From: Naegleria gruberi
Taxonomy: Eukaryota
Strand: one strand, 5' to 3'
Assembly: GCA_000004985.1 (NCBI GenBank)
Contig: GG738876.1
DNA length: 64,000 nt
Shown here: piece after piece, positions 14,520 to 63,600 of the stretch
Layout of the letters: every line of letters starts with the position of its first letter
Position numbering within the stretch: the first letter of the stretch is position 1
Position numbers and translations under genes: made by a program
The notes under the pieces: model-generated
The model's input: only the letters and a program-made list of their open reading frames with translations
Database searches by the model: none
What the model was told of the DNA's origin: nothing

Positions 14520-14590
14520 TCGGGTGTGGTATAGTGGTAGCATTCCAGACTGTCACTCTGGCGACCCGGGTTCAATTCCCGGCACTCGAG
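14520..14590 (+). tRNA. tRNA-Asp (anticodon GUC), intron-less
   Basis: Cloverleaf drawn by hand: acceptor TCGGGTG/CACTCGA, anticodon stem CCAGA/TCTGG with loop CTGTCAC, T-arm CCGGG-TTCAATT-CCCGG. Closely resembles eukaryotic tRNA-Asp-GTC. Confidence 0.85.
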
Positions 14591-18819: not shown

Positions 18820-20439
18820 ATGTCCTCATCAATTGCCCTGAATAATTCTAATACCTCTACCACTACTACTACCAATCCTCCTTTTGATATTTCCAAGCTT
18901 GTTACTCAAGCAGTTTTGTTACCTTCCTCCTCATCGTCATCCTTCCATAACAACCTCCCTAAATCATCATCATCATCCCCCTGTGCATTGGATAATAATA
19001 CCAATGAACAACAACAACAACAACCATTGAGTGATGATTCGATCATTCTCGAAGAAACAACCACCACCGACGTTGATAATACAGTAATTGCCACCATAAC
19101 GACAAAAGCTGCTCTAGGCAGTGGTGCTTTGATGGTTGAAGGAGTTGCCCTTGTCGACGATGAAGATGACGAAGAATCAACACCTGCCACACCAGAAGCT
19201 AATGGAGAATCCCAGCAAGAATCTTCTCAACAAGAACACCAAGAATCTGGCCTTTTAAAAGCCAAGAAGAAGAAGAATTCATTGACTAATAGTGCAGCAG
19301 CTCTTGAAGATTTGGAAACTATTTCAACCATGACAACTGTCAAGACTACAAGTACAACAAAGAAGGTTGTCAAGAGACATTCATCGCTCTCTGCTCAAAC
19401 TATGAACCAAGCAATGGATCAATCAATGAATCAATCAGCTCAACAAGAAGAACAATACACCACTCTTAAATCATCCACTCCAACAAAGAAGCAGAACAAG
19501 GAAAAGAAAGCAAGTCCTATCAATAATCTCTTCAAATCCATCAAGGGTGTCATTAAATCTTTAAAGAAGAATAAGAATAACAAGAGCACTTCTAGCTCAA
19601 CGACTTCACATAATAATAGCAAGCAAGATGGTGATTTAATCCATCAATTCTGTANNNNNNNNNNNNNNNNNNNNNNNNNNNNNNNNNNNNNNNNNNNNNN
19701 NNNNAACAAGGTGAAGCACTCACTGGTTTCTCAACAAGACGAAGAAGTCAAGACAAATAAGAAGAGAGCTCACAAGCAAGCTCCACAAACTGCTCTTCTC
19801 CCACCTCAACGACCACACGTTCAAGGCAAGAAGACTCTTGTACTTGACCTTGATGAAACATTGGTTCACTCTGTCTTTGTACATACTGACCAAGCTGACT
19901 TTGTGATTCCAATTGAAATGGATGGTAGAACATACTCTTGTTATGTTCTCAAGAGACCTGGAGTTGACGAATACTTGAGAGAACTCGGTCAATACTATGA
20001 AATTATCATCTTTACTGCTTCTCTCTCCCTGTATGCCAACCCACTTCTTGACATTCTTGATAAGCATGGTGTCATTGAAGGTAGATTATTCCGTGAACAT
20101 TGTACAAAGGTTGGTGATACTTACATTAAGGATCTCTCAAGATTGGGTCGTGATTTAGATCAAACCATTATTGTAGATAATTCTCCAAGTTGCTATGCAA
20201 TGCAACCACAAAATGCTTTGGCTTGTACCACATGGTACGATGATCCAAACGATAGAGAGCTGGGTCTTCTTGCTGATTGTCTCAAACGACTTGAAAGAGA
20301 AAAGGCTGTCTATGATGGTCTCAAGTCATGGAAGGAATTAATTTCATCAGGTGTTAATGTTACCTCATGGAATGGCGGATCAGCAATGACAGTATCCTCG
20401 ACGTCTCACCATCATCAAGTAATAAAGAAAAGAATGTAA
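18820..20439 (+). CDS. CTD small phosphatase-like protein (FCP1-homology/NIF domain), interrupted by N-gap 19656-19704
   Basis: C-terminal catalytic domain KKTLVLDLDETLVHS (DxDxT motif) ... IIIFTASLSLYANPLLDILD ... IIVDNSP. Long Ser/Thr/Gln-rich N-terminal region. The gap sits in the low-complexity linker. Confidence 0.8.
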   Translation: MSSSIALNNSNTSTTTTTNPPFDISKLVTQAVLLPSSSSSSFHNNLPKSSSSSPCALDNNTNEQQQQQPLSDDSIILEETTTTDVDNTVIATITTKAALGSGALMVEGVALVDDEDDEESTPATPEANGESQQESSQQEHQESGLLKAKKKKNSLTNSAAALEDLETISTMTTVKTTSTTKKVVKRHSSLSAQTMNQAMDQSMNQSAQQEEQYTTLKSSTPTKKQNKEKKASPINNLFKSIKGVIKSLKKNKNNKSTSSSTTSHNNSKQDGDLIHQFCXXXXXXXXXXXXXXXXXNKVKHSLVSQQDEEVKTNKKRAHKQAPQTALLPPQRPHVQGKKTLVLDLDETLVHSVFVHTDQADFVIPIEMDGRTYSCYVLKRPGVDEYLRELGQYYEIIIFTASLSLYANPLLDILDKHGVIEGRLFREHCTKVGDTYIKDLSRLGRDLDQTIIVDNSPSCYAMQPQNALACTTWYDDPNDRELGLLADCLKRLEREKAVYDGLKSWKELISSGVNVTSWNGGSAMTVSSTSHHHQVIKKRM

Positions 20440-20991: not shown

Positions 20992-21072
20992 TGCAGAAGG
21001 TGGGATTTGAACCCACGAAGCTTGCGCAGTAGAACTTGAGTCTACCCCCTTTGACCACTCGGGAACCCCTGC
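20992..21072 (-). tRNA. tRNA-Leu (anticodon CAA), intron-less, long variable arm
   Basis: Minus-strand GCAGGGGTTCCCGAGTGGTCAAAGGGGGTAGACTCAAGTTCTACTGCGCAAGCTTCGTGGGTTCAAATCCCACCTTCTGCA. 3-bp D stem, anticodon loop CT-CAA-GT, 12-nt variable arm, T-arm GTGGG-TTCAAAT-CCCAC. Confidence 0.8.
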
Positions 21073-23902: not shown

Positions 23903-24024
23903 NNNNNNNNNNNNNNNNNNNNNNNNNNNNNNNNNNNNNNNNNNNNNNNNNNCTGAAATTTTATTAATTTTATCTTTTTTTGCTTAATCATCATCATCCT
24001 AGGATGAAAATGCATAATTTATTA

Positions 24025-36680: not shown

Positions 36681-39600
36681 TTAAATGTCAAGTCGAACAT
36701 CATCTGCAGTTTCGACAACCTTCTTGACTAAAACTTCCTTATGTAATTGTCCAATAAGTCTTCCCATCCAAACAACAAACAAATCGTCAATTCTCAATTG
36801 AGAGAAGAGAAGGTGAGCAATGAGGGCTGGTGTATCTTCACTTATGGCAACAGGACATGTTTGATAATCGAGCGAAATCCTTTCACTTCTTGGATTATTA
36901 TTGTCTTGTAACTCGATAGTGTGATTGGAATTTTGATTTTCTTCAGTGAGGGCAGGCTCCCACCCAAAATATAATGATTCACCTCTTGACAAGAGTTTGG
37001 TTGACAAATTCTCTTTTTCTTCTTGATGTTCTGGATGTTCTTGAGTATTACCACTATTACTGTGGCTAGACTCCTCCTGTTCGATTGCTTGCTTTTTCAA
37101 ATTGTAAATATTTTGTAATTGAATTAAAGAAATAGTACCCAATAAGAACATATCCTTCTTGCTATTGACAACTGGGAATGTCTTTGGCAGAACCTTTCTA
37201 TTTTCTAAAATAGTTTCCAACTCACTAAATGAAGCATTTTCCTCAAAAACTATTAAAGAATCTGCATAATTCATAATATCCTTAACAGTGAAATTATCAT
37301 TGTCCGTTTGTGCTTCCAACAATGCTGGCCAACCTTTGAGTTTGATAATTGAATCATAAATGTTCAAAGTTAAGGATCTACTAATCTTGACTGCAATAAT
37401 GGCTGCCATTAGAGAGGGTAAATAGACTCCAGTACCAGCCACTTCCAATAAGATAAATACTGTACTAAAAGCATGAGTAGCACTAGCAGACAGGGCAACA
37501 GCACCAACAATTGCATAGCCTCCAGCATTGATAGCATATTCTGAATTGGTGTATCCATTTTGGAACATAAAGTGCATCACTTCACCCCAGAAACGACCAA
37601 CACCAGCACCCATAACAACGAGAGGTACGTAAATACCTGCAGGGATTGGTAAGGAAACTGAAATAAAGCTAAGCAAAATTCTGAAAACGAGGAAAATACT
37701 CAAGTGGGCAAAAAGCTCATTATAATAATTTACACCTTTTGTTCCTTCACTGATCCATGCTCCAATTGCTCCATTTTCTGGTAGTAATTGTTGTCCGTAA
37801 AATAAGCTTTCCAATGTTTGACTAACAGAAAGTGACATGAATTTTCCAAACAAATAAGGGAATGTTATAACACTAGTAATGATTGCAATCAAAACAGACC
37901 AAAGGAAAATATTTTGGAGTGGATACAAGTATTTCTTTCCATTCAGTTTTCCAAATTTGAAAAATCCCAAATAATATCCTCCAAATCTATTTCTCAATCG
38001 AAGAAGTTTGTCATTGATAAAAACAAATCCTACGCCCATAAGTCCAAGGAATGCTCCTAAAAGTGCATATGAAATTAAATCTGGAATGGTATATGCTGGC
38101 AATGAAAATCTAATGTGCCAAACAAATGACAAGTAAATAGTGCCATCAGTTGCAGCGTGTAAAAGACGAGAAGTAAGAGCAGCAACTACGGCCACATAGA
38201 AAGACTTGATATAAGTTCTCAATGAATAGTATGTACCGATAGCTTCCAGAGCTAGTAATACACCACCTCCAGGTGTACCAAAGTTTGCACCAACACCCAT
38301 GGCCTAATGAAATTATAGTTCATTCAACAACCAGAAAGAGAAAATCAACTTACACAACCACAGGCAATCATTTGAGCTCTCAAGGTCTTACTATCCTTAA
38401 TGCCTTTGAATATTTTCAATTTCAGTAAATTATCAGCCAGTGAAGCTCCTATGGTGATTACAGGACCAACTCGACCTACAAACATGCTCGCTCCAATCAC
38501 TAGAGGCAAACAAAATACTCTTACAAATAAAGTTTTAAATGCTACTGGATCTTTGAGTGAATCGACACCAGTCTGAAATATTGAATCAGTTTCTGTTATC
38601 AATAAATTTGAAATATATCATGATAAACATACCAAAATTGCTTTGATTGCTGGAACACCACTTCCTTCAGCAGTTGGAGCGACCCAAGCAGTCATGAATA
38701 AACAAAATATAATAAAGGTAATATTATACAAGACCCACATTACCATCTTGACAGCATTTCTTGACGTTTCATCTGTTATGTAATTGAATTGTTCAATTAG
38801 TTCCCATCTCCCAATTTCCATATATGTTATAACAATATCCTGTACAAAGACAATCAAACCTCCCAAGAGCCCTAAAATACTCAAGAATGTCCACACATAT
38901 TTCTGTGCTGCGAAATCAGTGTACTTTTTAAATAACCTCTTGATATCAAATCTTCCTCCACTGGAAACAGTGGCAAGTCCTCGTTCCTTTAACTCTTTCA
39001 CTTTCATTTCAAAATCGTGAGCTGTGTGCAGAATTTTAAGCATTGTGTAAGTATTAATTTGGTCAAATGAGGCACTTGTTGAAATGTTAAAATTACTAAA
39101 TGCTGATTTCTTTTGTACTGTTGGTGGTGTCTGCAATCCAATATCTCTATCATCATTAAAATCCTCATTCGTTTCATTATTTCTTCTATTAAATATTGTG
39201 GTCATTTGTCCATATCTTGTTTTCGTTGTATCCTCTATTCCTAATTTCACCTCATTCTCATCCAACATGGGTACATCGGAAAAGTTTAATTTATCAGAAC
39301 ATGATGAACTACTCCTACTATGATCTGTTCCTGCTGAATTAGGAGTAATGATAACTCCAGAATTTACAGAATTTGCAGAGTTTGTTCTACTGTGAGAGGG
39401 AGGTTTTTGAGTTTTTGATTTTTCCTCTTCCTTCTTCGGAATTGCTTTCATTCCAGGAGGAGGCATAATATATGTAGTACTTGGAGAACTTGGGCTCTCC
39501 ACAACAATTACTTCCTCATCCTCCGAATCATCTGCATAATCATAGAATGGATTTCTTTCCAGAACAGCATTAATTACATCATTGTTGAGGTAGGAAGGTG

Positions 39601-39703
39601 TTGCTGGAGTTTTTACAGAATTAGTAGAACCACTTGCTCCTCTATTATTGCTATTCAAACTATTTGTACTAGCAGCCTTTGAGCCACCAAATCTAAAGGA
39701 CAT
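36681..39703 (-). CDS. CLC-family chloride channel/transporter with C-terminal CBS domains, complement(join(36681..38303,38354..38572,38633..39703))
   Basis: GSGVPAIKAIL (GSGIP motif), GRVGP (GKEGP motif), and FGTPGGGVLLALE (GxFxP motif) across the three track ORFs. They are joined by two short introns (60 and 50 nt, GTATGT/GTAAGT...AG), and the splice choice reproduces the conserved ILTGV...KTLFVRV spacing. Two CBS-like repeats at the C-terminus. Confidence 0.8.
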
Positions 39704-40069: not shown

Positions 40070-43000
40070 ATGGGAGCTGTGCGTTTAGAATCGAAAAAAA
40101 AAATGGCCGATAATCTTTCCACTGTCTCTGTTGCACGTGGAGGTGAGGATGATGGCACTGGTTTGATTGGTCAATTGCCGAATGAATTGATCAAACAAAT
40201 ATTTTACTATTGTAGTGGGAAGGAGGAAGTACAAAATTTAGCACTCACCAACAAGCTTTTATATTCAATTTTTGATGCCGAGATGGAATTGAATTTAGAT
40301 CGGCTAAGATTGGGATTTTTGAATGGAAGAGTAAAAAAGGAGAGTAGACTTTCACGTCTATTGGAGTTGTACAATTCTAATAATGGTGAAATGTTGACAT
40401 ATGACCAATACTTTGTGGATAAGAATTTAATGTACAAGGAGGCCTATACTGATAGAATTCAAGTACCTTCTCTGGATGCTGGTGATGAAGAAATTAATAG
40501 AGAGGATTTTATTAAGTCCATGCTATGTGATATTCCAGCCTCTCGTAATATGAAATTGAATGAAGATGATGAAGATAATGAGAAAGAAGATGAGGAAAAG
40601 GAGGATAAGGATAGTGATGAAGAGGAAGAAGCTCCAAAAAAGAAGAAACGAAAACTTTCTAAAAAAGCAAGGAAAAGATTTGACGATGAAGATATGAATG
40701 ATGACGAAGATGAAGAACAAGATGATGAAGAAGGGGATAGTGACGACGAAGAAGAAGCAAAAGTTGCCAAAGCAAAGAAAGGATTTGAAGCTAATACTCT
40801 CAATGAATTCAAGACTAGAATTAACAAATTGCTCAAGAAAAACACTTTGGCTGCAACAATTTCGAACATCATCTTTGAATTCAACAAGTCTTCCAATATC
40901 AAATTCATTATTGCAGGTGGTTTTGTGCTTCATTGCATTACTGGGTGTAGTTCATGTGATATTGATATTTTCTGTATCAATAATGGAGAAGATGACAAGA
41001 GTGTGGATATTGCTTTCAAGAAGGTTCTTGCTATCATTGAAAAGAAATTGAAAGAAGAATCTATCGAGTATAGAGTGTTGAAAACTAATGGTACACTCAA
41101 CATTATGCCTAAGATTAGTGGAGAACGAACAAAATTCCAAAACAAGTATCCAGACTCAAGCACACCAGATAATAAGTTGGGCGTTCAATTTGTTTTGAGA
41201 AGAGTTGCCTCTATTGAAGAGCTTATGTGTTTTTTCGATATTGACGCATGTAGATTTTCATTTGATGGTGAAAAGGTCTATACTATATTGGAAGGGTTAC
41301 GTGCTTTGCAGTACAATATGAATTTTATTGGAAGAGAACATATTTCAACTATTCTCTATTATGATAGAGCTATCAAGTATAGCAGAAGAGGCTTTGGAAC
41401 TTTCAGTGTTGACTTTCATCACCCACTCCAACACCGTTTGCACATTCAACCTTTTGTGACTTGGTTGAGAAAATTCTTTGGTGAACATTACTTTAATGAT
41501 GATCCACAAGTTATTGAAGATGATCCTTATTATTCAGGATATTCTAATTGGGATGAATATTCTCATTTAGCACCTTATATGTTTGTTCACATTTATGGCA
41601 ACGGAGACGAAGAACAAAATTATGGAAATAGAGATATTGATGAAGACAATTATTACACTGTCATTTTAAGAAGTGTAGACTATTGGTTGATTGACAAGTT
41701 TTGCAATCATCCAATCAGAACCGTTCTTTCTAGCTTGTGGGAATATTATTCAGATGGTAGATATATTAATGATTTAAAAAAGGTTAAAGTAGAGGATAAC
41801 GTAGACGGAGATGAGGAATTGATTGAATCAATTGCAACACACATTGAAAAGCATGATGTTCACTATTTTTGTAAAGACATTTCAGAATTGTTGCAAAAGA
41901 ACCAATCTATTTACATTACCGAGGGCTATTTAGATAGTCACTTGATGAAAAAGTACAAGTATTACAAGTGCTATATTTGTGGAAAGTATTCTCATATTAC
42001 AAAGAAGAAGAAGTGTGAAAATACAGATTTTTGTTCGGAATGTCACAAATTCAATGAGAGAGCCAAGTCACTCCGTAGAGATTTGAATGATAAGGTAGCC
42101 ATAGTAACAGGTGCTAGAGCCAAGATTGGTTATGAAACTGCCTTGTTATTGCTTAGAATGAAATGTACTGTTGCTGCTACTTCCAGATTTGCACACAATG
42201 CCTTTGACAAGTTCAAGTTAGAGAAGGATTTTAATGACTGGAAAGATAGATTACTTGTTTATCCATTAAATTTGAAAGATGGTAAATCAGTGATGGAATT
42301 TATTGAATTTATCAAGAAGAAATTCAAGCATATCGATATCATTATTAACAATGCAGCTCAAACCGTCCGAAGACCAGTCACTTATTATCAACCTCTTATT
42401 GAAATTGAATTGAAAAATTGTGATAGTCCTCTTCCTCTTTCCCTTCCAACTGAAAATAAGGATGTCAAGGAATTGCAAGTACTCAGCAATAATTTGATTG
42501 AACAAACCATTCGATGCACCAAAGAGACAAGTCTTCCTGAGGATTTATCTTACATACCAACTAGTGAGAAGGATAAGTTTGGAGAGTTTATTGATAAGAG
42601 AAAGCTCAACAGTTGGAATCAATCGTTGACTGATACTTCGACTATTGAATTGGTAGAGGCTCAAATGATTAACAATGTTGCTCCAACTCTTATTGTTTCA
42701 AATTTGCAGGGAGTCATGACACCTGACTATGATAAGGCTGATGGCGATAGTAATCCAAATGATTCTCTTGCATTGGGCTATTCTTTCATTATTAATGTGA
42801 GTTCTCACGAAGGTCAATTCAACACAACTGGAAAGACAGACAATCACATCCATACCAACACTTCCAAAGCATCATTGAACATGCTTACCAGATCTGGTGC
42901 TAATCAATTTGCCAAGAGTGGTATTTTGATGAATAGTGTTGATACTGGATGGGTTTCATCAGCAATCAAAACATTCAAAGATCCTGTACTAAATTGTGAA

Positions 43001-43090
43001 GATGCTGCCTACAGAATTTTATACCCAATCCTTTCAGGATCTTTGGATTATGGTAAATTGTACAAAGATTACAAAGTGGTAGATTGGTAA
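40070..43090 (+). CDS. Multidomain protein: F-box-like N-terminus, long acidic D/E tract, CCHC zinc knuckle, C-terminal short-chain dehydrogenase/reductase (SDR)-like domain
   Basis: LPNELIKQIFYYCSGKEEVQNLALTNKLLYSIF (F-box-like). About 100-aa D/E/K-rich tract. CYICGKYSHITKKKKC (CX2CX4HX4C). SDR Rossmann VAIVTGARAKIGYETA, NNAAQT, INVSSHEGQF...HTNTSKASLNML. The canonical YxxxK Tyr position appears substituted. 1006 aa. Confidence 0.6.
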   Translation: MGAVRLESKKKMADNLSTVSVARGGEDDGTGLIGQLPNELIKQIFYYCSGKEEVQNLALTNKLLYSIFDAEMELNLDRLRLGFLNGRVKKESRLSRLLELYNSNNGEMLTYDQYFVDKNLMYKEAYTDRIQVPSLDAGDEEINREDFIKSMLCDIPASRNMKLNEDDEDNEKEDEEKEDKDSDEEEEAPKKKKRKLSKKARKRFDDEDMNDDEDEEQDDEEGDSDDEEEAKVAKAKKGFEANTLNEFKTRINKLLKKNTLAATISNIIFEFNKSSNIKFIIAGGFVLHCITGCSSCDIDIFCINNGEDDKSVDIAFKKVLAIIEKKLKEESIEYRVLKTNGTLNIMPKISGERTKFQNKYPDSSTPDNKLGVQFVLRRVASIEELMCFFDIDACRFSFDGEKVYTILEGLRALQYNMNFIGREHISTILYYDRAIKYSRRGFGTFSVDFHHPLQHRLHIQPFVTWLRKFFGEHYFNDDPQVIEDDPYYSGYSNWDEYSHLAPYMFVHIYGNGDEEQNYGNRDIDEDNYYTVILRSVDYWLIDKFCNHPIRTVLSSLWEYYSDGRYINDLKKVKVEDNVDGDEELIESIATHIEKHDVHYFCKDISELLQKNQSIYITEGYLDSHLMKKYKYYKCYICGKYSHITKKKKCENTDFCSECHKFNERAKSLRRDLNDKVAIVTGARAKIGYETALLLLRMKCTVAATSRFAHNAFDKFKLEKDFNDWKDRLLVYPLNLKDGKSVMEFIEFIKKKFKHIDIIINNAAQTVRRPVTYYQPLIEIELKNCDSPLPLSLPTENKDVKELQVLSNNLIEQTIRCTKETSLPEDLSYIPTSEKDKFGEFIDKRKLNSWNQSLTDTSTIELVEAQMINNVAPTLIVSNLQGVMTPDYDKADGDSNPNDSLALGYSFIINVSSHEGQFNTTGKTDNHIHTNTSKASLNMLTRSGANQFAKSGILMNSVDTGWVSSAIKTFKDPVLNCEDAAYRILYPILSGSLDYGKLYKDYKVVDW

Positions 43091-43508: not shown

Positions 43509-44138
43509 TTAGTCATGAATTTTACCATTTGCAATCACAGAAAGATTGGAAACCAATCCATCCAATTGAGAATGTTGTCTTCCTCCTCCATTATAAATGA
43601 TCTTTCCAATAGAAATCTTGTCAGATCTTGAATATTCCAAATTTCCTTGATATGCCTTAACAGAACCAACAACATTACCATTGACAGTAAGAATGGATCC
43701 ATGGTGCTTATTATATCTCCATTCTATGTGATGTTTCTCATTTAATCTCAAAGGTTCACTGTCATTGGTCAAGGCAATCAATTTTCCGTTTATATTTCCA
43801 TAAACACCAACAACTCCAGGTTTTTTATCAGAATCTTTTCCAAACAAGTAGAAGGTAAAGACCCATTTTGAACTATCTGATAAATCTCCCATGCTAATAA
43901 TCATGGAACAATACTTGTTGGCGAAAGAATTGATAACCACATCAAACGAAACCAAAACTTCACCTCTAATCACGCTGTATAGAAAGGAAACTTCCTTTTT
44001 CAAAGAATCAACTTGTTGTTCAAGAGATGGTTGAAATGAATCCTGTTGAGATTGTGTAATTTGCATACTGGACTTTTTTTTTGGTGTTTGAGAGCTTTTG
44101 AACATATTAGAGGTCGAATGAAACGTGAAAAATACCAA
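43509..44138 (-). CDS. Hypothetical protein, concanavalin-A-like/LamG-like beta-sandwich suspected
   Basis: 209-aa ORF whose pattern (VFTFYLFGKDSDKKPGVVGVYGNINGKLIALT...ILTVNGNVVGS) resembles lectin/LamG folds. Weak. Confidence 0.35.
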   Translation of the reverse strand: MVFFTFHSTSNMFKSSQTPKKKSSMQITQSQQDSFQPSLEQQVDSLKKEVSFLYSVIRGEVLVSFDVVINSFANKYCSMIISMGDLSDSSKWVFTFYLFGKDSDKKPGVVGVYGNINGKLIALTNDSEPLRLNEKHHIEWRYNKHHGSILTVNGNVVGSVKAYQGNLEYSRSDKISIGKIIYNGGGRQHSQLDGLVSNLSVIANGKIHD

Positions 44139-44199
44139 ACGTGATGAATCACTGATTGAAGATGTGAATGAGTGTTTAGCTAGTCATTTATTCATTGTA

Positions 44200-45303
44200 T
44201 TAGCAGCTATTATGCTTAATAGATGATTGTTGTGTTAGACCATCCTTTGTAACTTTCCAAAACGAAAGAGTGTTGTCATATGCTCCAGCAACAAATCCTC
44301 CTCTTGGTGATTCTACAATATTCAAAATTCTATTATCTGTAATTTCATCACTGACCAACAATTCTTCACCTTCCTCTTTTGTAATGTCAAATACTCTAAT
44401 AGCATTATTTTCTGCTGCATTGTTTTTTGACATTGCCGAACCAATTAGCAAGTTTGAATATACCTTAGACCATACCAATCCAAATACTCGTGAATTGAGG
44501 TGTTTAATTTTCCTTATTAATTTGCCAGTTTCGGTTTCCCAAATGCAAATCTTTCCATCACCGACTCCACCACCACTTGCTAGCTTGGGTGATTGATAAT
44601 TATGAGACCAAGATAATGCCTTAACAGTGCTGTTATGCTTTTGAAGTCTGAATTCAGGTTGTTCAACATTGACTTTCCATATTTGGATTTCGTTATCTGA
44701 ACCTGAGCTAGCCAATTGTTGTCCATTTGGAGACCATTCTAAGCCGCAGATTTTTGCACAGTTACCTGCAACTGAACTAATTACTTCTCCAGAACGAATA
44801 TCATGAGTCATAATATTTCCAAAATTATCCGATCCTGATGAAATCAAGTGCTTTTGAACTGGATTCCAAGATATAACTGGCACTCTGTCCCTGTGTCCAC
44901 TAATTTGTCCAATTTTAATAGTCCTCTCAATGTCCCAAAGGTGAATTTGTCCAGAATTGAAACCTATGGCCAAAATGGATCCATCCTTGTTCCAGGAAAC
45001 GCTCGTAGTGATATCACTTTCTTGTTTCAATTCACAAACACTCCCCAAATTAGCATTCCACAAATTAACTGCCTTATCCTCCGTTGCTACAGCAAGTATA
45101 TTTCCTCCACTCCAACAAATATTATTCGTATAATAATCATTCACATAATCAGACTTCATCAAATTCCGATATTCAAACTTCATATGAAAACTTTTTTCCT
45201 TCATTTTCAATTGTAATAGTTTGAAACTTTCATTGTGAGAAGAAGGAAATGAATTGAAATCGGTGAGAGGGATGCAAGCAATGTTGGGGTTTGATTGATT
45301 CAT
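44200..45303 (-). CDS. WD40-repeat protein
   Basis: Multiple WD repeats (GQIHLWDIERTIKIGQISGHRDRVPVISWNP; IQIWKV; KICIWETETGK). 367 aa. Confidence 0.7.
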   Translation of the reverse strand: MNQSNPNIACIPLTDFNSFPSSHNESFKLLQLKMKEKSFHMKFEYRNLMKSDYVNDYYTNNICWSGGNILAVATEDKAVNLWNANLGSVCELKQESDITTSVSWNKDGSILAIGFNSGQIHLWDIERTIKIGQISGHRDRVPVISWNPVQKHLISSGSDNFGNIMTHDIRSGEVISSVAGNCAKICGLEWSPNGQQLASSGSDNEIQIWKVNVEQPEFRLQKHNSTVKALSWSHNYQSPKLASGGGVGDGKICIWETETGKLIRKIKHLNSRVFGLVWSKVYSNLLIGSAMSKNNAAENNAIRVFDITKEEGEELLVSDEITDNRILNIVESPRGGFVAGAYDNTLSFWKVTKDGLTQQSSIKHNSC

Positions 45304-45390
45304 TGAATGAACGTTCTGGTATTTTTTTTGGTTTAATTTCTTACAATGGTTTAATTTATTTTTGATTTTAGAAATGTTACAAAAATTATA

Positions 45391-48300
45391 TTATGTGAGA
45401 CCAAATGATTGAGTACCTTGTTCAATGGCTTGAATCAATTTTTCCTTCAAGGTTTCTCTATCTCTATAGCTTGGAAGTTTCAAAAGAGAGTAGCAAGTAC
45501 TGGAAGTTGGTAAACGAGAGGTGTCAGTCACTCTTTGAATACAAATCTTTGGGTGCATATCTTTAAATCCGAGCAGTGGTGGTCTTGAAATTGAACTAAT
45601 GAATTTGAGTAACAAGACGTGTTGTGAAGAGGTCAAATCATTAAAGACAACATCCCAAAACATTTGAATGGTTGGATGTTCTTGACTGTAACCACTTCCA
45701 TACTCTGTATTGGCATATAGGTCATCAATATCGATTGGACTATCACTTCCACAGATAATATCAATAAATTCATTTTCATCAAAAAGAGAAATCCATGATG
45801 AAGGTACAATTTCATTCAATCCCTTCATGAATGCATCTGATTGACTCTTAATTTGGTGGTTGAGCTTATAATTAGCAACTCTGAAAATAAAGGAGAGTTT
45901 GTTGCTGTCAGTCACTGCAATATTTTCACCATTTGGTATCAATTGTCTTGCAATTCTGCCAGATAATTCATCTCCATCCACAATAGTAAAATTCAATCCC
46001 AAATCTCCTGCATTATTATTATTTTTCAAAAAGAGCAAGTTACGATGTAATTCCTTGTCAAATGTAGCCAAATCATTAATTAAATCATTGTTGTTACCCT
46101 TCATTAATTTTGAAACGAAAAATTTGGCAAATGGTAAGTCAATAACAATGGCATCATAAATTGCCTTGCCTAATATCTTCCCCAAAAAGTTATAAAATCT
46201 CAAATCAAGACCATCTGGATAAATTATTGAGGAATTAGGATTTGGATATAAACGACCATCATCGGTTGCTTTGAAAAGTCCATAGCTATTGCTGAATGCA
46301 AGTTTGCTCAATTCGAACAAGTATTCTCTCAATGGGCCAAGGCCAATACCATCCTCTACAGTGTTATGTTGATCAATAAATTGCACTCTTACTCTTCCTT
46401 TCAATTGAAGAGGGGAAAGGTTGTTCAATTTGGCATAAGAATCCTCAAATATTTGTTCCCTTCTTATTCCAATAGGTTCTATGAAATGCTGTAAATCATA
46501 ACAATAGTCTCTATCCATTGCAATAACTTCCTTGAATATCTTTAATCTTATTTCTAAAGGTACTAAGAAGGGTAATTTCTCGATAAGCTCTTTCGTCTTG
46601 TTAAATGCCTGAGCCTCTTTGAATGATGATGTTTTTCTGGACATGGCTTCTCTTAAGGCTTGAATTCGTTGTAATCTGAGAGGAATATATTCCCCTGTAA
46701 CCATTGGAGAGTCATCATCAACCATTTCATCACCTCTAAATATAAACTCGGAAATCTTTTCAATATCAAGATTAGATGCCTCAGTTATAGTGAAATGATT
46801 CTTTGGACAAAAGTTTAGCCTAACATCTCTGTTGTGTAATTTGGTGAGTAAATCACAGAGGCCGGCTTTGAGTGTGAGTTTCGAATTATTCCACACCAAC
46901 TCAAAACATAAGGGAATGAGAAGTGCTGATATTTGAACATTTTCCTCCAATGAAAATGGTTTTGTCTTGAAGCTTTCATCATCCATAAAGGCAAGAATAT
47001 TGTCATATACTTTACAAAATAGAGCTAGAATTTCAATATTTTCCAACAGGTCATTCTTGATAGCACTCCACATTAATTTGACTAATTTAAAATCATCAGA
47101 ACAATAGGAAATAATATTCAATATGGTACTTGTATGTTTGCTTTCATCATGCATTAGGAAAAGAAAAATGTTTGAAAAGTCTACAAGACTTTCCTTATTT
47201 TCATCCACTGACAAAATAGCATCAATGATACGTTTGAGGTGAACACCTTTCATTAAGAGTTCGACTTGCTGCCTGATATCGGAAAGTGTTGAAAATTGTT
47301 CATCACTTTCTTCAGATACCACTGATTCATTTATGGAAATCAAATCAAAGTTCACTTGAGGCAAAATGGTAGCTACAATACGAAGATAATTAACAATGCT
47401 TTGAGGGGAGATCTTGTTCTCTTTCATGAATCCATGTACAAGCTCTATTAAATTTCCACAAAAATAGAGTCTTCTCTTACTTTCCTTCTCTTCTGATTTG
47501 AATTTTTCAATGACATCTTGAGGATTCAATTTGGAAAACAATGTATCAATATCAATCTGAAGAAGAGAACTTGTAGAAAAGTGTGTAAAAATGAATGGAA
47601 GAGAAAAGAGCTCCAACAAAAAAGACAGTGACAGCTGTGGATCAAATACACAACCTGACAATGTCAATCCCAATATGCTAGCAGCATAATTCTTTGATTT
47701 TTCTTGGTGATGTGTCACAAATTGATGAATAATTGAGATGATGTTACAGTCCTTTGTACAAATAATCTTTCCTAAAAACTTGGCAAAACTCAAGTCATTA
47801 GTGAAATACTTCCTATCAAGAAGGCAAGTTAGTGATTGTGTCGCAAGAATTAATCTCTTGTTTGATGAGAGATCCAACTCATTGTCGTTTGTTCTACTAA
47901 TAAAGTCCAATACTAATCGAGCTAATTTAGAATATTTGAAATGAGCAGCATCTTCAGAAATGATGGCGGAACTATTTCTTATTGTTCTTATCAGAAAATT
48001 CAAAATAATCAACAATCTGTTGAAATCCTTTTCATCTCGTTTAGGATTATAAAAATACAAGAGTTTGTTCAGTAGTTGTATAAATTTCGACAAATCCAAT
48101 CCTGATTTCATATATTGTTGTACCAATTCATCAAAGGCTAACCGTTGTCTATTTTTCTCCTTTCTACTATTCAAAAACTTTCTAGCAACCCTCACCAACA
48201 AGGCTCCTGATTGTTCTTCAAGCTTTGATTGCCGATTCCTCTCTCTTTCTCTTCTAGCATTTTCCAATATTTCCTCTCGGGATAAATTCTTTGATCCTCC

Positions 48301-48402
48301 CATGGAAACTTTCTTTCCACTTGCTCCACCACCAAAAGAAAAATTCATAGTGAAAGATAACAGCAATAGAAAAACGGAAAACACAACAGAAAGATTGAAC
48401 AA
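45391..48402 (-). CDS. HECT-domain E3 ubiquitin ligase, UBE3C/Hul5-like (N-terminal IQ-like basic helix)
   Basis: C-terminal HECT lobe ending LPTSSTCYSLLKLPSYRDRETLKEKLIQAIEQGTQSFGLT (catalytic Cys context). N-terminal ARRERERNRQSKLEEQSGALLVRVARKFLNSRKEKNRQ. 1003 aa, intron-less. Confidence 0.8.
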   Translation of the reverse strand: MFNLSVVFSVFLLLLSFTMNFSFGGGASGKKVSMGGSKNLSREEILENARRERERNRQSKLEEQSGALLVRVARKFLNSRKEKNRQRLAFDELVQQYMKSGLDLSKFIQLLNKLLYFYNPKRDEKDFNRLLIILNFLIRTIRNSSAIISEDAAHFKYSKLARLVLDFISRTNDNELDLSSNKRLILATQSLTCLLDRKYFTNDLSFAKFLGKIICTKDCNIISIIHQFVTHHQEKSKNYAASILGLTLSGCVFDPQLSLSFLLELFSLPFIFTHFSTSSLLQIDIDTLFSKLNPQDVIEKFKSEEKESKRRLYFCGNLIELVHGFMKENKISPQSIVNYLRIVATILPQVNFDLISINESVVSEESDEQFSTLSDIRQQVELLMKGVHLKRIIDAILSVDENKESLVDFSNIFLFLMHDESKHTSTILNIISYCSDDFKLVKLMWSAIKNDLLENIEILALFCKVYDNILAFMDDESFKTKPFSLEENVQISALLIPLCFELVWNNSKLTLKAGLCDLLTKLHNRDVRLNFCPKNHFTITEASNLDIEKISEFIFRGDEMVDDDSPMVTGEYIPLRLQRIQALREAMSRKTSSFKEAQAFNKTKELIEKLPFLVPLEIRLKIFKEVIAMDRDYCYDLQHFIEPIGIRREQIFEDSYAKLNNLSPLQLKGRVRVQFIDQHNTVEDGIGLGPLREYLFELSKLAFSNSYGLFKATDDGRLYPNPNSSIIYPDGLDLRFYNFLGKILGKAIYDAIVIDLPFAKFFVSKLMKGNNNDLINDLATFDKELHRNLLFLKNNNNAGDLGLNFTIVDGDELSGRIARQLIPNGENIAVTDSNKLSFIFRVANYKLNHQIKSQSDAFMKGLNEIVPSSWISLFDENEFIDIICGSDSPIDIDDLYANTEYGSGYSQEHPTIQMFWDVVFNDLTSSQHVLLLKFISSISRPPLLGFKDMHPKICIQRVTDTSRLPTSSTCYSLLKLPSYRDRETLKEKLIQAIEQGTQSFGLT

Positions 48403-58580: not shown

Positions 58581-58753
58581 GGAATTTATTGGATTAACAG
58601 TAAATTTTGGAATTACTCTCCTATTGAAGATGGAACATCAGCAACATCACCAAGATGATCTTCAATTGGATAGTATTGTTTTCAGGAGTGGTTTCACGCT
58701 TTTTGTGGGCTCTTTCAACATACCATCATCAGAATGGTCATCATCTTGTTGAG

Positions 58754-61700
58754 NNNNNNNNNNNNNNNNNNNNNNNNNNNNNNNNNNNNNNNNNNNNNNN
58801 NNNNNNNNNNNNNNNNNNNNNNNNNNNNNNNNNNNNNNNNNNNNNNNNNNNNNNNNNNNNNNNNNNNNNNNNNNNNNNNNNNNNNNNNNNNNNNNNNNNN
58901 NNNNNNNNNNNNNNNNNNNNNNNNNNNNNNNNNNNNNNNNNNNNNNNNNNNNNNNNNNNNNNNNNNNNNNNNNNNNNNNNNNNNNNNNNNNNNNNNNNNN
59001 NNNNNNNNNNNNNNNNNNNNNNNNNNNNNNNNNNNNNNNNNNNNNNNNNNNNNNNNNNNNNNNNNNNNNNNNNNNNNNNNNNNNNNNNNNNNNNNNNNNN
59101 NNNNNNNNNNNNNNNNNNNNNNNNNNNNNNNNNNNNNNNNNNNNNNNNNNNNNNNNNNNNNNNNNNNNNNNNNNNNNNNNNNNNNNNNNNNNNNNNNNNN
59201 NNNNNNNNNNNNNNNNNNNNNNNNNNNNNNNNNNNNNNNNNNNNNNNNNNNNNNNNNNNNNNNNNNNNNNNNNNNNNNNNNNNNNNNNNNNNNNNNNNNN
59301 NNNNNNNNNNNNNNNNNNNNNNNNNNNNNNNNNNNNNNNNNNNNNNNNNNNNNNNNNNNNNNNNNNNNNNNNNNNNNNNNNNNNNNNNNNNNNNNNNNNN
59401 NNNNNNNNNNNNNNNNNNNNNNNNNNNNNNNNNNNNNNNNNNNNNNNNNNNNNNNNNNNNNNNNNNNNNNNNNNNNNNNNNNNNNNNNNNNNNNNNNNNN
59501 NNNNNNNNNNNNNNNNNNNNNNNNNNNNNNNNNNNNNNNNNNNNNNNNNNNNNNNNNNNNNNNNNNNNNNNNNNNNNNNNNNNNNNNNNNNNNNNNNNNN
59601 NNNNNNNNNNNNNNNNNNNNNNNNNNNNNNNNNNNNNNNNNNNNNNNNNNNNNNNNNNNNNNNNNNNNNNNNNNNNNNNNNNNNNNNNNNNNNNNNNNNN
59701 NNNNNNNNNNNNNNNNNNNNNNNNNNNNNNNNNNNNNNNNNNNNNNNNNNNNNNNNNNNNNNNNNNNNNNNNNNNNNNNNNNNNNNNNNNNNNNNNNNNN
59801 NNNNNNNNNNNNNNNNNNNNNNNNNNNNNNNNNNNNNNNNNNNNNNNNNNNNNNNNNNNNNNNNNNNNNNNNNNNNNNNNNNNNNNNNNNNNNNNNNNNN
59901 NNNNNNNNNNNNNNNNNNNNNNNNNNNNNNNNNNNNNNNNNNNNNNNNNNNNNNNNNNNNNNNNNNNNNNNNNNNNNNNNNNNNNNNNNNNNNNNNNNNN
60001 NNNNNNNNNNNNNNNNNNNNNNNNNNNNNNNNNNNNNNNNNNNNNNNNNNNNNNNNNNNNNNNNNNNNNNNNNNNNNNNNNNNNNNNNNNNNNNNNNNNN
60101 NNNNNNNNNNNNNNNNNNNNNNNNNNNNNNNNNNNNNNNNNNNNNNNNNNNNNNNNNNNNNNNNNNNNNNNNNNNNNNNNNNNNNNNNNNNNNNNNNNNN
60201 NNNNNNNNNNNNNNNNNNNNNNNNNNNNNNNNNNNNNNNNNNNNNNNNNNNNNNNNNNNNNNNNNNNNNNNNNNNNNNNNNNNNNNNNNNNNNNNNNNNN
60301 NNNNNNNNNNNNNNNNNNNNNNNNNNNNNNNNNNNNNNNNNNNNNNNNNNNNNNNNNNNNNNNNNNNNNNNNNNNNNNNNNNNNNNNNNNNNNNNNNNNN
60401 NNNNNNNNNNNNNNNNNNNNNNNNNNNNNNNNNNNNNNNNNNNNNNNNNNNNNNNNNNNNNNNNNNNNNNNNNNNNNNNNNNNNNNNNNNNNNNNNNNNN
60501 NNNNNNNNNNNNNNNNNNNNNNNNNNNNNNNNNNNNNNNNNNNNNNNNNNNNNNNNNNNNNNNNNNNNNNNNNNNNNNNNNNNNNNNNNNNNNNNNNNNN
60601 NNNNNNNNNNNNNNNNNNNNNNNNNNNNNNNNNNNNNNNNNNNNNNNNNNNNNNNNNNNNNNNNNNNNNNNNNNNNNNNNNNNNNNNNNNNNNNNNNNNN
60701 NNNNNNNNNNNNNNNNNNNNNNNNNNNNNNNNNNNNNNNNNNNNNNNNNNNNNNNNNNNNNNNNNNNNNNNNNNNNNNNNNNNNNNNNNNNNNNNNNNNN
60801 NNNNNNNNNNNNNNNNNNNNNNNNNNNNNNNNNNNNNNNNNNNNNNNNNNNNNNNNNNNNNNNNNNNNNNNNNNNNNNNNNNNNNNNNNNNNNNNNNNNN
60901 NNNNNNNNNNNNNNNNNNNNNNNNNNNNNNNNNNNNNNNNNNNNNNNNNNNNNNNNNNNNNNNNNNNNNNNNNNNNNNNNNNNNNNNNNNNNNNNNNNNN
61001 NNNNNNNNNNNNNNNNNNNNNNNNNNNNNNNNNNNNNNNNNNNNNNNNNNNNNNNNNNNNNNNNNNNNNNNNNNNNNNNNNNNNNNNNNNNNNNNNNNNN
61101 NNNNNNNNNNNNNNNNNNNNNNNNNNNNNNNNNNNNNNNNNNNNNNNNNNNNNNNNNNNNNNNNNNNNNNNNNNNNNNNNNNNNNNNNNNNNNNNNNNNN
61201 NNNNNNNNNNNNNNNNNNNNNNNNNNNNNNNNNNNNNNNNNNNNNNNNNNNNNNNNNNNNNNNNNNNNNNNNNNNNNNNNNNNNNNNNNNNNNNNNNNNN
61301 NNNNNNNNNNNNNNNNNNNNNNNNNNNNNNNNNNNNNNNNNNNNNNNNNNNNNNNNNNNNNNNNNNNNNNNNNNNNNNNNNNNNNNNNNNNNNNNNNNNN
61401 NNNNNNNNNNNNNNNNNNNNNNNNNNNNNNNNNNNNNNNNNNNNNNNNNNNNNNNNNNNNNNNNNNNNNNNNNNNNNNNNNNNNNNNNNNNNNNNNNNNN
61501 NNNNNNNNNNNNNNNNNNNNNNNNNNNNNNNNNNNNNNNNNNNNNNNNNNNNNNNNNNNNNNNNNNNNNNNNNNNNNNNNNNNNNNNNNNNNNNNNNNNN
61601 NNNNNNNNNNNNNNNNNNNNNNNNNNNNNNNNNNNNNNNNNNNNNNNNNNNNNNNNNNNNNNNNNNNNNNNNNNNNNNNNNNNNNNNNNNNNNNNNNNNN

Positions 61701-62899
61701 NNNNNNNNNNNNNNNNNNNNNNNNNNNNNNNNNNNNNNNNNNNNNNNNNNNNNNNNNNNNNNNNNNNNNNNNNNNNNNNNNNNNNNNNNNNNNNNNNNNN
61801 NNNNNNNNNNNNNNNNNNNNNNNNNNNNNNNNNNNNNNNNNNNNNNNNNNNNNNNNNNNNNNNNNNNNNNNNNNNNNNNNNNNNNNNNNNNNNNNNNNNN
61901 NNNNNNNNNNNNNNNNNNNNNNNNNNNNNNNNNNNNNNNNNNNNNNNNNNNNNNNNNNNNNNNNNNNNNNNNNNNNNNNNNNNNNNNNNNNNNNNNNNNN
62001 NNNNNNNNNNNNNNNNNNNNNNNNNNNNNNNNNNNNNNNNNNNNNNNNNNNNNNNNNNNNNNNNNNNNNNNNNNNNNNNNNNNNNNNNNNNNNNNNNNNN
62101 NNNNNNNNNNNNNNNNNNNNNNNNNNNNNNNNNNNNNNNNNNNNNNNNNNNNNNNNNNNNNNNNNNNNNNNNNNNNNNNNNNNNNNNNNNNNNNNNNNNN
62201 NNNNNNNNNNNNNNNNNNNNNNNNNNNNNNNNNNNNNNNNNNNNNNNNNNNNNNNNNNNNNNNNNNNNNNNNNNNNNNNNNNNNNNNNNNNNNNNNNNNN
62301 NNNNNNNNNNNNNNNNNNNNNNNNNNNNNNNNNNNNNNNNNNNNNNNNNNNNNNNNNNNNNNNNNNNNNNNNNNNNNNNNNNNNNNNNNNNNNNNNNNNN
62401 NNNNNNNNNNNNNNNNNNNNNNNNNNNNNNNNNNNNNNNNNNNNNNNNNNNNNNNNNNNNNNNNNNNNNNNNNNNNNNNNNNNNNNNNNNNNNNNNNNNN
62501 NNNNNNNNNNNNNNNNNNNNNNNNNNNNNNNNNNNNNNNNNNNNNNNNNNNNNNNNNNNNNNNNNNNNNNNNNNNNNNNNNNNNNNNNNNNNNNNNNNNN
62601 NNNNNNNNNNNNNNNNNNNNNNNNNNNNNNNNNNNNNNNNNNNNNNNNNNNNNNNNNNNNNNNNNNNNNNNNNNNNNNNNNNNNNNNNNNNNNNNNNNNN
62701 NNNNNNNNNNNNNNNNNNNNNNNNNNNNNNNNNNNNNNNNNNNNNNNNNNNNNNNNNNNNNNNNNNNNNNNNNNNNNNNNNNNNNNNNNNNNNNNNNNNN
62801 NNNNNNNNNNNNNNNNNNNNNNNNNNNNNNNNNNNNNNNNNNNNNNNNNNNNNNNNNNNNNNNNNNNNNNNNNNNNNNNNNNNNNNNNNNNNNNNNNNN
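58754..62899. other. Scaffold gap (4146 N) between subtelomere and terminal telomere-associated sequence
   Basis: Uninterrupted run of N. The giant six-frame ORFs spanning it are artefacts. Confidence 0.99.
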
Positions 62900-63600
62900 G
62901 AATTGATATGAAATTCAATACCAATTATTGAAATACCATGATTAATTGATCTATATATGATGCTATAATTGAAAGATTTTAAAATTAATATCATTTCATT
63001 ATCTTGATATTCATTATTCCCATGATTACACTCCTGACATGTTGAATGATATCAAATTGTCATGAAACTGATACAGTAGTGTTTATTCACCATTAGTAAG
63101 GTACTGTATCAATTTCATAATGATCTGTATAGTAGATGTCATTGTCTCATCCCTGTAGGTATCAAGTGGATCAGCCATGTACCATGAATGATATGGATGA
63201 TCTTCAAAATCATATAGATATATTTAATTATCATGTATAGATGTATTGGAAGTGAATTGAAGTGGTATAGATTTCTATCTTCAATGTTAGTATAGGTCAG
63301 TTGACAAGTTGAATAGTTAATTTCCTTAGATGATTCCACAGTACCTGAAATTGATACATGTTGTTACCAACATGATTTATAAGGTGATATATTGATTTGA
63401 ATTGATTTTGAAATGTTTTCATTGATATTCTAATTGTCTAATCTATTATATGAAATTAACTTATATAAGTCATTATAATGATGTAATATTATGTTATAAT
63501 ATGATTATATATTCAATTTGGAGTATATTGATATATAATATATTGATTTATAATGAGTATTTATTGAGATAATCAATTAAGATGACTAAAAATCAAAATG

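What the first reader, a model, noticed from the sequence alone, without database searches (positions are those of the whole stretch)
40070..43090. Chimeric F-box / poly-acidic / CCHC-knuckle / SDR-like protein with a likely catalytically altered SDR
A single 1006-aa ORF combines an SCF-adaptor-like F-box at the N-terminus with a Rossmann-fold SDR at the C-terminus (TGxxxxIG-like GARAKIG, NNAA-like NNAAQT). In the active-site segment HTNTSKASLNML the canonical YxxxK Tyr position appears occupied by Thr/Asn, which suggests a pseudo-enzyme or a non-classical mechanism. A zinc knuckle (CYICGKYSHITKKKKC) and a 100-residue D/E tract lie between. It could be an SCF substrate adaptor that uses a dead SDR fold for metabolite or nucleotide sensing.
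Basis: partly seen in the sequence, partly recalled or inferred. Interest (0 to 1): 0.5.

Follow-up and report, generated by a model that had tools for sequence, protein, structure and literature searches.

The report
F-box, nucleotidyltransferase, atypical SDR fusion protein

Summary
The 1006-aa ORF is real. It is Naegleria gruberi NAEGRDRAFT_58420 and is conserved in N. lovaniensis, N. fowleri and Willaertia. The F-box holds up under family-level profile tests. The C-terminal SDR is real, and Thr929 does sit at the catalytic Tyr position, as shown by alignment to PhaB.

Three parts of the description are wrong or incomplete:
- The "CCHC knuckle" is not one. It is a Cys4(+His) zinc-ribbon-like element that always precedes this SDR type.
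- The acidic tract is about 70 residues, mixed-charge and not conserved.

The Tyr-to-Thr change is invariant across a family of more than 2000 proteins from bacteria, archaea, protists and giant viruses. That family also has invariant cofactor-loop motifs and invariant Glu, His-x-His, Asn and Lys around the active site. This argues for a non-classical but functional site, not decay.

The NTase-like domain is repeatedly fused to F-box or BTB modules in protists and giant viruses. Most likely this is an SCF-docked NTase/SDR enzyme-like cassette acting on a nucleotide or RNA ligand; the substrate is unknown. I rate it a new variant of known kinds, of moderate interest.

The parts
40070..43090 (+). 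Whole ORF (1006 aa + stop). The likely true CDS starts at the second ATG, 40103 (995 aa, = NAEGRDRAFT_58420).
   Evidence: orthologues also begin 'MA...'
40157..40327 (+). F-box (LPNELIKQIFYY...) with a conserved family-specific extension ending in RLxFLN (ORF aa 30-86)
   Evidence: Pfam F-box scores 22.1 bits on the isolated segment; 13/15 homologues hit F-box-like; the profile hits FBXW7, AnkB, FBXO31, TIR1, SKP2 etc. in PDB
40547..40780 (+). Low-complexity mixed-charge linker (ORF aa 160-237): two acidic runs split by the basic patch KKKKRKLSKKARKR. Not conserved.
40901..41413 (+). Pol-beta / class II CCA-adding-like nucleotidyltransferase-fold core (PF26128), ORF aa 278-448. Contains G283-G284-x12-D297-x-D299-x-F301, then F389-D390-x-D392-x-C394 and R433..K436.
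41414..41920 (+). Helical subdomain following the NTase core (ORF aa 449-617), with a disordered loop. Leads into the conserved EGYxDSHLxxKY segment.
   Evidence: model pLDDT 82.6, loop at mid-domain residues 268-289 below 50; conservation
41963..42061 (+). Zinc-ribbon-like element: C634-x2-C637-x4-H642-x12-C655-x2-C658. Not a CCHC knuckle.
   Evidence: The four Cys are present in 115-117 of 119 family members; C649 is not conserved; no zf-CCHC Pfam hit
42083..43087 (+). Classical-fold SDR domain of a distinct family (ORF aa 672-1006). Gly motif is T680-G-A-R683-A-K685-I-G687; also R706, N760-N-A-A-Q-T.
   Evidence: adh_short 3e-17; model pLDDT 88.6, pTM 0.91; Foldseek top hits are isopiperitenone reductase and FabG; family statistics
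42368..42649 (+). Family-specific insertion of about 95 residues between beta4 (NNAAQT) and the alpha4 Asn helix. It carries invariant Pro, Asp, Asp, Arg and Trp (FP..D..G..D.R..NSW).
42788..42889 (+). Active-site segment IINVSSHEGQFNTTGKTDNHIHTNTSKASLNMLT. S912 is at the Ser position; E914, K922, H926, H928 are conserved; T929 (42854-42856) is at the Tyr position; N930; K933.
   Evidence: PhaB alignment; IPR alignment; column counts

Best explanation
Shown: the gene encodes a heterolobosean-conserved multidomain protein. From N to C it has an F-box, a non-conserved charged linker, a Pol-beta/class II-like nucleotidyltransferase-fold domain (PF26128) with an intact GG-x12-DxD motif, a helical subdomain, a Cys4(+His) zinc ribbon, and a classical-fold SDR. 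The SDR belongs to a large, uncharacterised family whose active site is N-(S/A)-T-K plus invariant Glu and His-x-His, instead of N-S-Y-K. Inferred: the F-box docks the protein to Skp1/Cul1. The NTase-Zn-SDR cassette is a working ligand-binding unit, and probably a catalytic one, rather than a decayed fold. I infer that the NTase uses NTP/Mg2+ through D297/D299, and that the SDR binds a dinucleotide cofactor (probably NADP(H), given R683, K685 and R706) and uses a non-tyrosine acid/base set (candidates H926, H928, E914, T929). The most plausible ligand class is a nucleotide-bearing molecule, possibly an RNA 3' end. The protein would therefore either present such a ligand-bound target to SCF for ubiquitylation or be an SCF-regulated enzyme. 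The substrate and the chemistry are not known.
Against: There is no biochemical evidence for any domain. The middle Gly of TGxxxGxG is Lys in 112/119 members, so canonical NAD(P) binding is not assured. Class II NTase motifs B (RRD) and D (EDxxR) are absent, so this is not a CCA-adding enzyme or PAP, and the position of a third carboxylate could not be checked because no coordinates were available. The bacterial neighbourhood signal is modest, is not a fixed operon, and is inflated by related Flavobacteriia. The bacterial N-terminal extension is only mildly basic. High conservation is equally compatible with a ligand sensor. F-box function (Skp1 binding) is untested, and the full-length Pfam score is below threshold.
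Confidence: 0.55

Rival explanations
1. One reading: an SCF substrate adaptor in which the SDR is catalytically dead and serves only as a metabolite or nucleotide (e.g. NADPH) sensor that gates substrate recruitment, as in atypical SDR sensors such as HSCARG/NMRAL1 or NmrA.
For: The catalytic Tyr is absent, the Gly motif is non-canonical, and the F-box is supported. Conservation of binding motifs fits a sensor as well as an enzyme.
Against: The same active-site constellation is invariant in more than 2000 mostly stand-alone bacterial, archaeal and viral proteins with no ubiquitin system partner. Invariant polar residues (E914, H926, H928, T929, N930, K933, N868) cluster at the catalytic positions, which is unnecessary for mere cofactor binding. 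Active SDRs lacking the Tyr exist.
Confidence: 0.2
2. The NTase-like domain is the functional core as a non-catalytic substrate-recognition or scaffold module of cullin-RING ligases, in a family expanded in protists and their giant viruses through host-virus conflict. On this view the SDR is an accessory add-on in one sub-lineage.
For: The domain is fused to F-box, BTB, ankyrin, VWFA and RING-like modules in many protist and giant-virus proteins. The N. gruberi paralogue NAEGRDRAFT_60034 is F-box + NTase-like with no SDR.
Against: GG...DxD and a downstream Asp are invariant or nearly so across distant members, which argues for metal/NTP chemistry rather than a pure scaffold. The SDR fusion recurs in 24 of 147 representatives across distant lineages.
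Confidence: 0.15
3. The F-box acts outside SCF (as in some yeast F-box proteins), or merely makes the enzyme itself unstable through auto-ubiquitylation, so the protein is simply a regulated bifunctional enzyme.
For: The F-box is divergent, with a family-specific RLxYLN extension. Some NTase-Zn-SDR relatives (e.g. Acrasis kona P0138, choanoflagellate P0261) show no detectable F-box.
Against: Nothing direct. The parallel BTB fusions point to cullin-RING contexts generally.
Confidence: 0.08
4. Gene-model or assembly artefact: two or three adjacent genes read through as one ORF.
For: None beyond the unusual length and composition.
Against: The reading frame is uninterrupted. The same order of domains occurs in single proteins from four other heterolobosean genomes and from metagenomes.
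Confidence: 0.02

Closest known systems
Classical SDRs (FabG, PhaB acetoacetyl-CoA reductase)
   Same: Rossmann fold, NNAx motif, alpha4 Asn, Ser and Lys of the tetrad, and beta5-alphaF-beta6 topology. These align directly.
   Different: Tyr is replaced by Thr. A 4-residue insertion carrying His-x-His lies just before it. There is an invariant Glu after the Ser position. The middle Gly of TGxxxGxG is Lys. There is an insertion of about 95 aa after beta4 and an obligatory N-terminal zinc ribbon. Identity is at most 20%.
Mentha isopiperitenone reductase (PDB 5lcx/5l4s)
   Same: Best structural and profile match. It has a large insertion and a non-Tyr residue (Glu) at the catalytic position, yet is an active C=C 'ene' reductase.
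   Different: It has Glu, not Thr. It has no zinc ribbon and no HxH, and its Gly motif is canonical. Only the N-terminal half aligns strongly.
Class II nucleotidyltransferases (CCA-adding enzymes, bacterial poly(A) polymerase) and TENT5/FAM46
   Different: No PolyA_pol Pfam hit. Motif B RRD is replaced by FDxD, and no EDxxR base-recognition motif was found. There is no recognisable body/tail tRNA-binding domain.
Pandoravirus 'cluster 7' BTB-nucleotidyltransferase proteins (bioRxiv 10.1101/2023.12.02.569716)
   Same: The same kind of NTase-like domain: motif A present, RRD replaced by DFD, two conserved basic residues downstream. It is fused to a cullin-adaptor module. Pandoravirus proteins are Foldseek hits of my model.
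   Different: BTB instead of F-box, viral rather than cellular, and no zinc-ribbon SDR. That annotation is also purely computational.
F-box proteins carrying enzyme domains (FBH1 F-box helicase; KDM2A/B = FBXL11/10) - from general knowledge
   Same: An N-terminal F-box attached to an enzyme-type domain instead of WD40/LRR repeats. FBH1 is among the profile hits.
   Different: Different enzyme classes. To my knowledge no F-box-NTase-SDR protein has been characterised.

Membership tests
F-box (PF00646 / PF12937) | Profile match above the Pfam gathering score at the N-terminus | tested here: met
   17.1 bits (< 20.5) in the full-length scan, but 22.1 bits for the isolated segment. 12-13 of 15 homologous N-termini match, best E about 3e-6.
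F-box (PF00646 / PF12937) | Homology to structurally defined Skp1-binding F-boxes | tested here: met
   A family profile against PDB sequences gives 16 F-box proteins among 19 hits, the best being FBXW7 at E=0.002.
F-box (PF00646 / PF12937) | Binds Skp1 and assembles into SCF | not testable with these tools
   Needs a pull-down or co-structure.
zf-CCHC retroviral-type zinc knuckle (PF00098) | C-x2-C-x4-H-x4-C spacing and a profile match | tested here: not met
   No hit at E<=10. The spacing is C-x2-C-x4-H-x6-C and that fourth Cys is not conserved. The conserved partners are a distal C-x2-C.
Classical SDR (adh_short, PF00106) | Profile match and Rossmann/SDR fold | tested here: met
   63.2 bits against a gathering score of 26.6. 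The model matches FabG and IPR with probability 1.0.
Classical SDR (adh_short, PF00106) | TGxxxGxG cofactor loop | tested here: not met
   The loop is T-G-A-R-A-K-I-G. The middle Gly is Lys in 112/119 family members.
Classical SDR (adh_short, PF00106) | Catalytic tetrad Asn-Ser-Tyr-Lys (YxxxK) | tested here: not met
   N868, S912 and K933 are present, but the Tyr position is T929 (118/119 Thr). The Ser position is Ala in 85/119 members.
Classical SDR (adh_short, PF00106) | NAD(P)(H)-dependent oxidoreductase activity | not testable with these tools
   Needs binding and activity assays.
Pol-beta nucleotidyltransferase superfamily | Fold: mixed beta-sheet flanked by helices | tested here: met
Pol-beta nucleotidyltransferase superfamily | Motif hG[GS]-x9-13-Dh[DE]h | tested here: met
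   A-G283-G284-x12-D297-I-D299-I-F. D/D invariant and GG at least 90% conserved in 33 and 84 sequence sets. It aligns on the DIDIF of CD-NTase 6p82.
Pol-beta nucleotidyltransferase superfamily | Third catalytic carboxylate on the adjacent strand | tested here: inconclusive
   D390 is invariant (D392 at least 90%), but no model coordinates were available to check its position.
Class II CCA-adding enzyme / poly(A) polymerase (PF01743) | Pfam PolyA_pol match; motifs B (RRD) and D (EDxxR) | tested here: not met
   No Pfam hit for the query or for 33 relatives. FDxD stands in place of RRD. The same was noted for the Pandoravirus relatives.
PF26128 (Pfam family covering the middle domain; name not available to me) | Precomputed Pfam hit | tested here: met
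   Listed for P0001 and its orthologues and for stand-alone or BTB-fused relatives of the middle domain. The model is absent from the local Pfam copy, so I did not re-score it.

The most novel reading that the evidence does not exclude
The zinc-ribbon 'HxHTNxxK' SDRs are a previously unrecognised family of RNA-directed (tRNA/rRNA) NADPH-dependent modification enzymes that use a tyrosine-independent, possibly His/Glu- or metal-assisted, mechanism. In Naegleria and other protists this enzyme is fused to a CCA-adding-like nucleotidyltransferase and an F-box, which would link RNA 3'-end or nucleotide chemistry directly to SCF ubiquitin ligase control.
Probability: 0.15. Interest if true: 0.8.

Novelty: new variant of a known kind. 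Interest (0 to 1): 0.45.

Why it matters
Two things would matter if confirmed. First, a family of thousands of SDR-fold proteins, found in at least 580 bacterial species plus archaea, protists and giant viruses, has replaced the supposedly universal catalytic Tyr, and usually the Ser and one Gly of the cofactor loop, with a different invariant set and an obligatory zinc ribbon. Working out its chemistry would extend the known mechanistic range of one of the largest enzyme superfamilies. Second, protists and their giant viruses repeatedly attach a CCA-adding-like nucleotidyltransferase fold to cullin-RING adaptor modules (F-box, BTB). This points to an unexplored connection between nucleotide or RNA chemistry and ubiquitin ligases. 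The practical lesson for the scan is that a missing catalytic residue in a single sequence should be judged against its own family before it is called a pseudo-enzyme.

Tried and rejected
1. zf-CCHC: rejected. There is no profile hit, the spacing is wrong and the fourth Cys is not conserved.
2. Acidic tract as a functional element: rejected. It is absent or different in orthologues.
3. Anti-phage defence models (PADLOC): no hits for the whole protein or the middle domain.
4. NCBIfam: only generic SDR models, far below their cut-offs.
5. Membership in the class II CCA/PAP family: rejected, because there is no Pfam hit and motifs B and D are missing.
6. Fixed bacterial operon for the SDR family: not found. 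Three of the first seven loci had no RNA-related neighbour. In 80 loci the best recurring neighbour (a DEAD-box helicase) lies within 2.5 kb in only 10, mostly Flavobacteriia.
7. Known domain in the ~130-aa bacterial N-terminal extension: none found. It is only mildly basic.
8. NTase fusion in giant-virus copies of the Zn-SDR: absent in 6 viral loci.
9. Literature searches for the locus tag, for PF26128 and for the domain combination returned nothing specific, apart from the Pandoravirus BTB-NTase preprint and the isopiperitenone reductase paper.
11. Gene-fusion artefact: rejected on orthologue evidence.
Full report
THE OBSERVATION. The window contains a single uninterrupted ORF at 40070..43090 on the + strand, 1006 aa long. 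A database search shows it is Naegleria gruberi NAEGRDRAFT_58420 (100% identity), annotated from the second Met at 40103, giving 995 aa. Orthologues also begin 'MA...', so 40103 is the likelier start. The neighbouring genes are typical eukaryotic genes: a ClC channel split by short introns, a CDC20/Fizzy WD40 protein and a HECT ligase. Full-length orthologues exist in N. lovaniensis (54% identity) and Willaertia magna (two copies). More distant proteins with the same order of domains occur in N. fowleri and in metagenomes. The gene is therefore real and is not a read-through artefact.

F-BOX. In the full-length Pfam scan the F-box scores 17.1 bits (E=0.005), below the gathering score of 20.5. 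I therefore tested it at family level. Fifteen homologous N-termini, taken from orthologues and from other proteins that share the middle domain, align over LPxE[IV]..x.I..[FY] followed by a family-specific S[IL][DE]..RLxYLN extension. Scanned one by one, 13 of 15 hit F-box-like and 12 of 15 hit F-box, and the query segment alone scores 22.1 bits. A profile of the 15 searched against all PDB sequences returns 16 F-box proteins among its 19 hits (FBXW7, Legionella AnkB, FBXO31, TIR1, FBH1, FBXO42, FBXL2, SKP2, FBXL5, FBXO4, FBXW8). The F-box assignment stands. Skp1 binding itself is inferred, not shown.

ACIDIC TRACT AND 'ZINC KNUCKLE'. The charged region spans ORF aa 160-237. Only about 69 residues reach 55% D/E, it is interrupted by KKKKRKLSKKARKR, and it is not alignable between orthologues. 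It is a low-complexity linker. No zf-CCHC model matches even at E<=10. The conserved residues are C634, C637, H642, C655 and C658, and the four Cys are present in 115-117 of 119 family members. This is a C-x2-C...C-x2-C zinc-ribbon-like element that always sits directly before this type of SDR, in bacteria as well. It is part of the SDR family's own architecture and not a separate nucleic-acid knuckle.

THE SDR AND ITS ACTIVE SITE. adh_short matches in two pieces (E=3e-17) because about 95 residues are inserted after beta4. An AlphaFold model built from a 119-sequence alignment is confident (pLDDT 88.6, pTM 0.91) and matches classical SDRs. The top Foldseek and profile hit is Mentha isopiperitenone reductase. 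The decisive alignment is with PhaB: query '...iinvsshegqfnttgktdnhihtntskaslnm...' against '...ivnissvngqkgqfgqtn----ystakaglhg...'. This places S912 on the catalytic Ser, T929 on the catalytic Tyr and K933 on the Lys. A four-residue insertion (N-H-I-H) lies immediately before T929.

IS THE SDR DEAD? The zinc + SDR module alone retrieves 2184 proteins at about 96% coverage. They come from Bacteroidota, Myxococcota, Bdellovibrionota, Spirochaetota, Elusimicrobia, Lokiarchaeota, Balamuthia and other protists. A scan of species genomes found relatives in 582 of 600 candidate stretches, and six viral contigs, four of them 117-624 kb and one labelled a GVMAG, also encode the module. In 119 aligned members, the Tyr position is Thr in 118 and K933 is invariant. 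The Ser position is Ala in 85 and Ser in 34. N868, E914 and H926 are invariant, and H928 and N930 are each present in 118 of 119. In the cofactor loop TG-x-R-x-K-I-G, Gly, Arg, Ile and Gly are invariant, and Lys occupies the usual middle-Gly position in 112 members. TTRF has an invariant Arg, and NNAAQT is essentially invariant. The insertion also carries invariant Pro, Asp, Asp, Arg and Trp. This is strong purifying selection on a different active-site constellation, mostly in stand-alone prokaryotic proteins. It is the opposite of what a decayed pseudo-enzyme would show. There is precedent for an active SDR without the Tyr: isopiperitenone reductase carries Glu there and reduces C=C bonds (PMC4988501). 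From general knowledge of SDR cofactor rules, basic residues in the Gly loop and directly after beta2 (R683, K685, R706) predict NADP(H). However, the Gly-to-Lys change means canonical binding cannot be assumed. No family member has a solved structure, and I found no literature on the family.

DOMAIN CONTEXTS. Among 147 representative relatives of the NTase-like domain, 24 carry the same zinc-ribbon/HxHTNxxK SDR at their C-terminus. These include Acrasis kona and the choanoflagellate Didymoeca costata, so NTase-Zn-SDR is a recurrent cassette. Among 84 other relatives, 17 have BTB domains, and several have F-boxes at strict thresholds, with many more at family level. Viral relatives add ankyrin, VWFA and RING-like modules. 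N. gruberi also has an F-box + NTase-like paralogue without the SDR (NAEGRDRAFT_60034) and a stand-alone SDR paralogue, P0007. One Willaertia orthologue has an A20-type zinc finger inserted after the NTase core. From general knowledge this domain type is linked to ubiquitin binding, which would be a further tie to the ubiquitin system.

HINTS TO THE SDR FAMILY'S ROLE. In seven bacterial loci, the gene overlapped a co-directional truA (L001), followed a co-directional RluA-type pseudouridine synthase by 28 nt (L008), faced truA (L009), and followed valS by 33 nt (L006). Three loci showed nothing RNA-related. In an unbiased clustering of flanking ORFs from 80 species genomes, the most recurrent neighbour was a DbpA-type DEAD-box RNA helicase. 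It was present in 12 loci, with all 14 copies on the same strand, 8 copies adjacent, and within 2.5 kb in 10 loci. It lay sometimes upstream and sometimes downstream, and it also occurred in a Bacteriovoracaceae genome. TruA or RluA-type genes were near in three further loci. This is an enrichment for RNA-metabolism neighbours, but it is modest, is not a fixed operon, and is inflated by related Flavobacteriia. The bacterial N-terminal extension is only mildly basic and matches no known domain. Combined with the fusion to a CCA-adding-like fold, an RNA or nucleotide substrate is a reasonable working hypothesis, but nothing more than that.

MOST LIKELY MECHANISM. Shown: the architecture, the family-wide non-classical SDR site, the intact NTase signature, and the recurrent coupling of these domains with each other and with cullin-RING adaptor modules. 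Inferred: the F-box docks the protein on Skp1/Cul1; the NTase-Zn-SDR cassette binds, and probably chemically acts on, a nucleotide-bearing ligand; and the protein either presents a bound target for ubiquitylation or is itself an SCF-controlled enzyme. The remainder is split between a scaffold-only NTase domain, an SCF-independent F-box and an artefact.

NOVELTY. Every individual fold is known, the gene is in public databases as a hypothetical 'F-box domain-containing protein', and the NTase-like domain has a Pfam entry and a computational description in Pandoraviruses. As far as I could find, three things are undescribed: the zinc-ribbon, Tyr-less SDR family as such; its recurrent fusion to that NTase-like domain; and the F-box-NTase-SDR architecture. 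I rate it a new variant of known kinds, with moderate interest (0.45). It would surprise an SDR specialist and is testable, but it currently lacks any functional anchor.

Noticed in passing
window 43509-48402 (- strand): Directly downstream of the F-box gene lie an unassigned 209-aa ORF, a CDC20/Fizzy-type WD40 protein (44200-45303, E=1e-73) and a 1003-aa HECT ubiquitin ligase (45391-48402, E=5e-88). That makes three ubiquitin-system genes within about 8 kb. It may be coincidence, since gene order in eukaryotes rarely implies function.
   Followed up: partly
window 36681-39703 (- strand): A voltage-gated ClC chloride channel gene appears as three consecutive ORF pieces (36681-38300, 38345-38602, 38618-39703) separated by very short gaps. 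This is consistent with very short introns or frame changes. It lies divergent to the F-box gene.
   Followed up: partly
window 58754-62899; also 19655-19704 and 23903-23952: Runs of N (assembly gaps). The large one explains the GC=0 stretch and the spurious ~1400-aa 'ORFs' listed at 58655-62994.
   Followed up: yes
window 14520-14590 (+) and 20992-21072 (-): tRNA-Asp(GTC) and tRNA-Leu(CAA) genes.
   Followed up: no
P0003 (Willaertia magna orthologue), residues 488-510: An A20-type zinc finger (PF01754, E=6e-7), flanked by acidic low-complexity sequence, is inserted between the NTase core and the helical subdomain. It is absent from the Naegleria protein. From general knowledge, this domain type is associated with ubiquitin binding.
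   Followed up: no
L010-L089 (bacterial loci), e.g. L018 3503-4843, L021 3621-4961 and 6584-7897, L033 1796-3046, L051 3607-4920: DbpA-type DEAD-box RNA helicase genes lie co-directionally next to the zinc-ribbon SDR gene in several flavobacterial genera and in a Bacteriovoracaceae genome. TruA/RluA pseudouridine synthase or ValRS genes are adjacent in others (L001, L006, L008, L009, L040).
   Followed up: partly
L090, L092, L094, L095 (IMG/VR contigs of 117-624 kb): Giant-virus-sized contigs encode the zinc-ribbon/HPHTNMAK SDR with unrelated N-terminal regions of 300 or more aa (L094 and L095 share one). No NTase-like domain was detected in them.
   Followed up: partly
window 40070 vs 40103: Two in-frame ATGs. 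The database model and the orthologues favour the second (aaaaaaaATGGCC), so the first 11 codons of the reported ORF are probably 5' UTR.
   Followed up: yes
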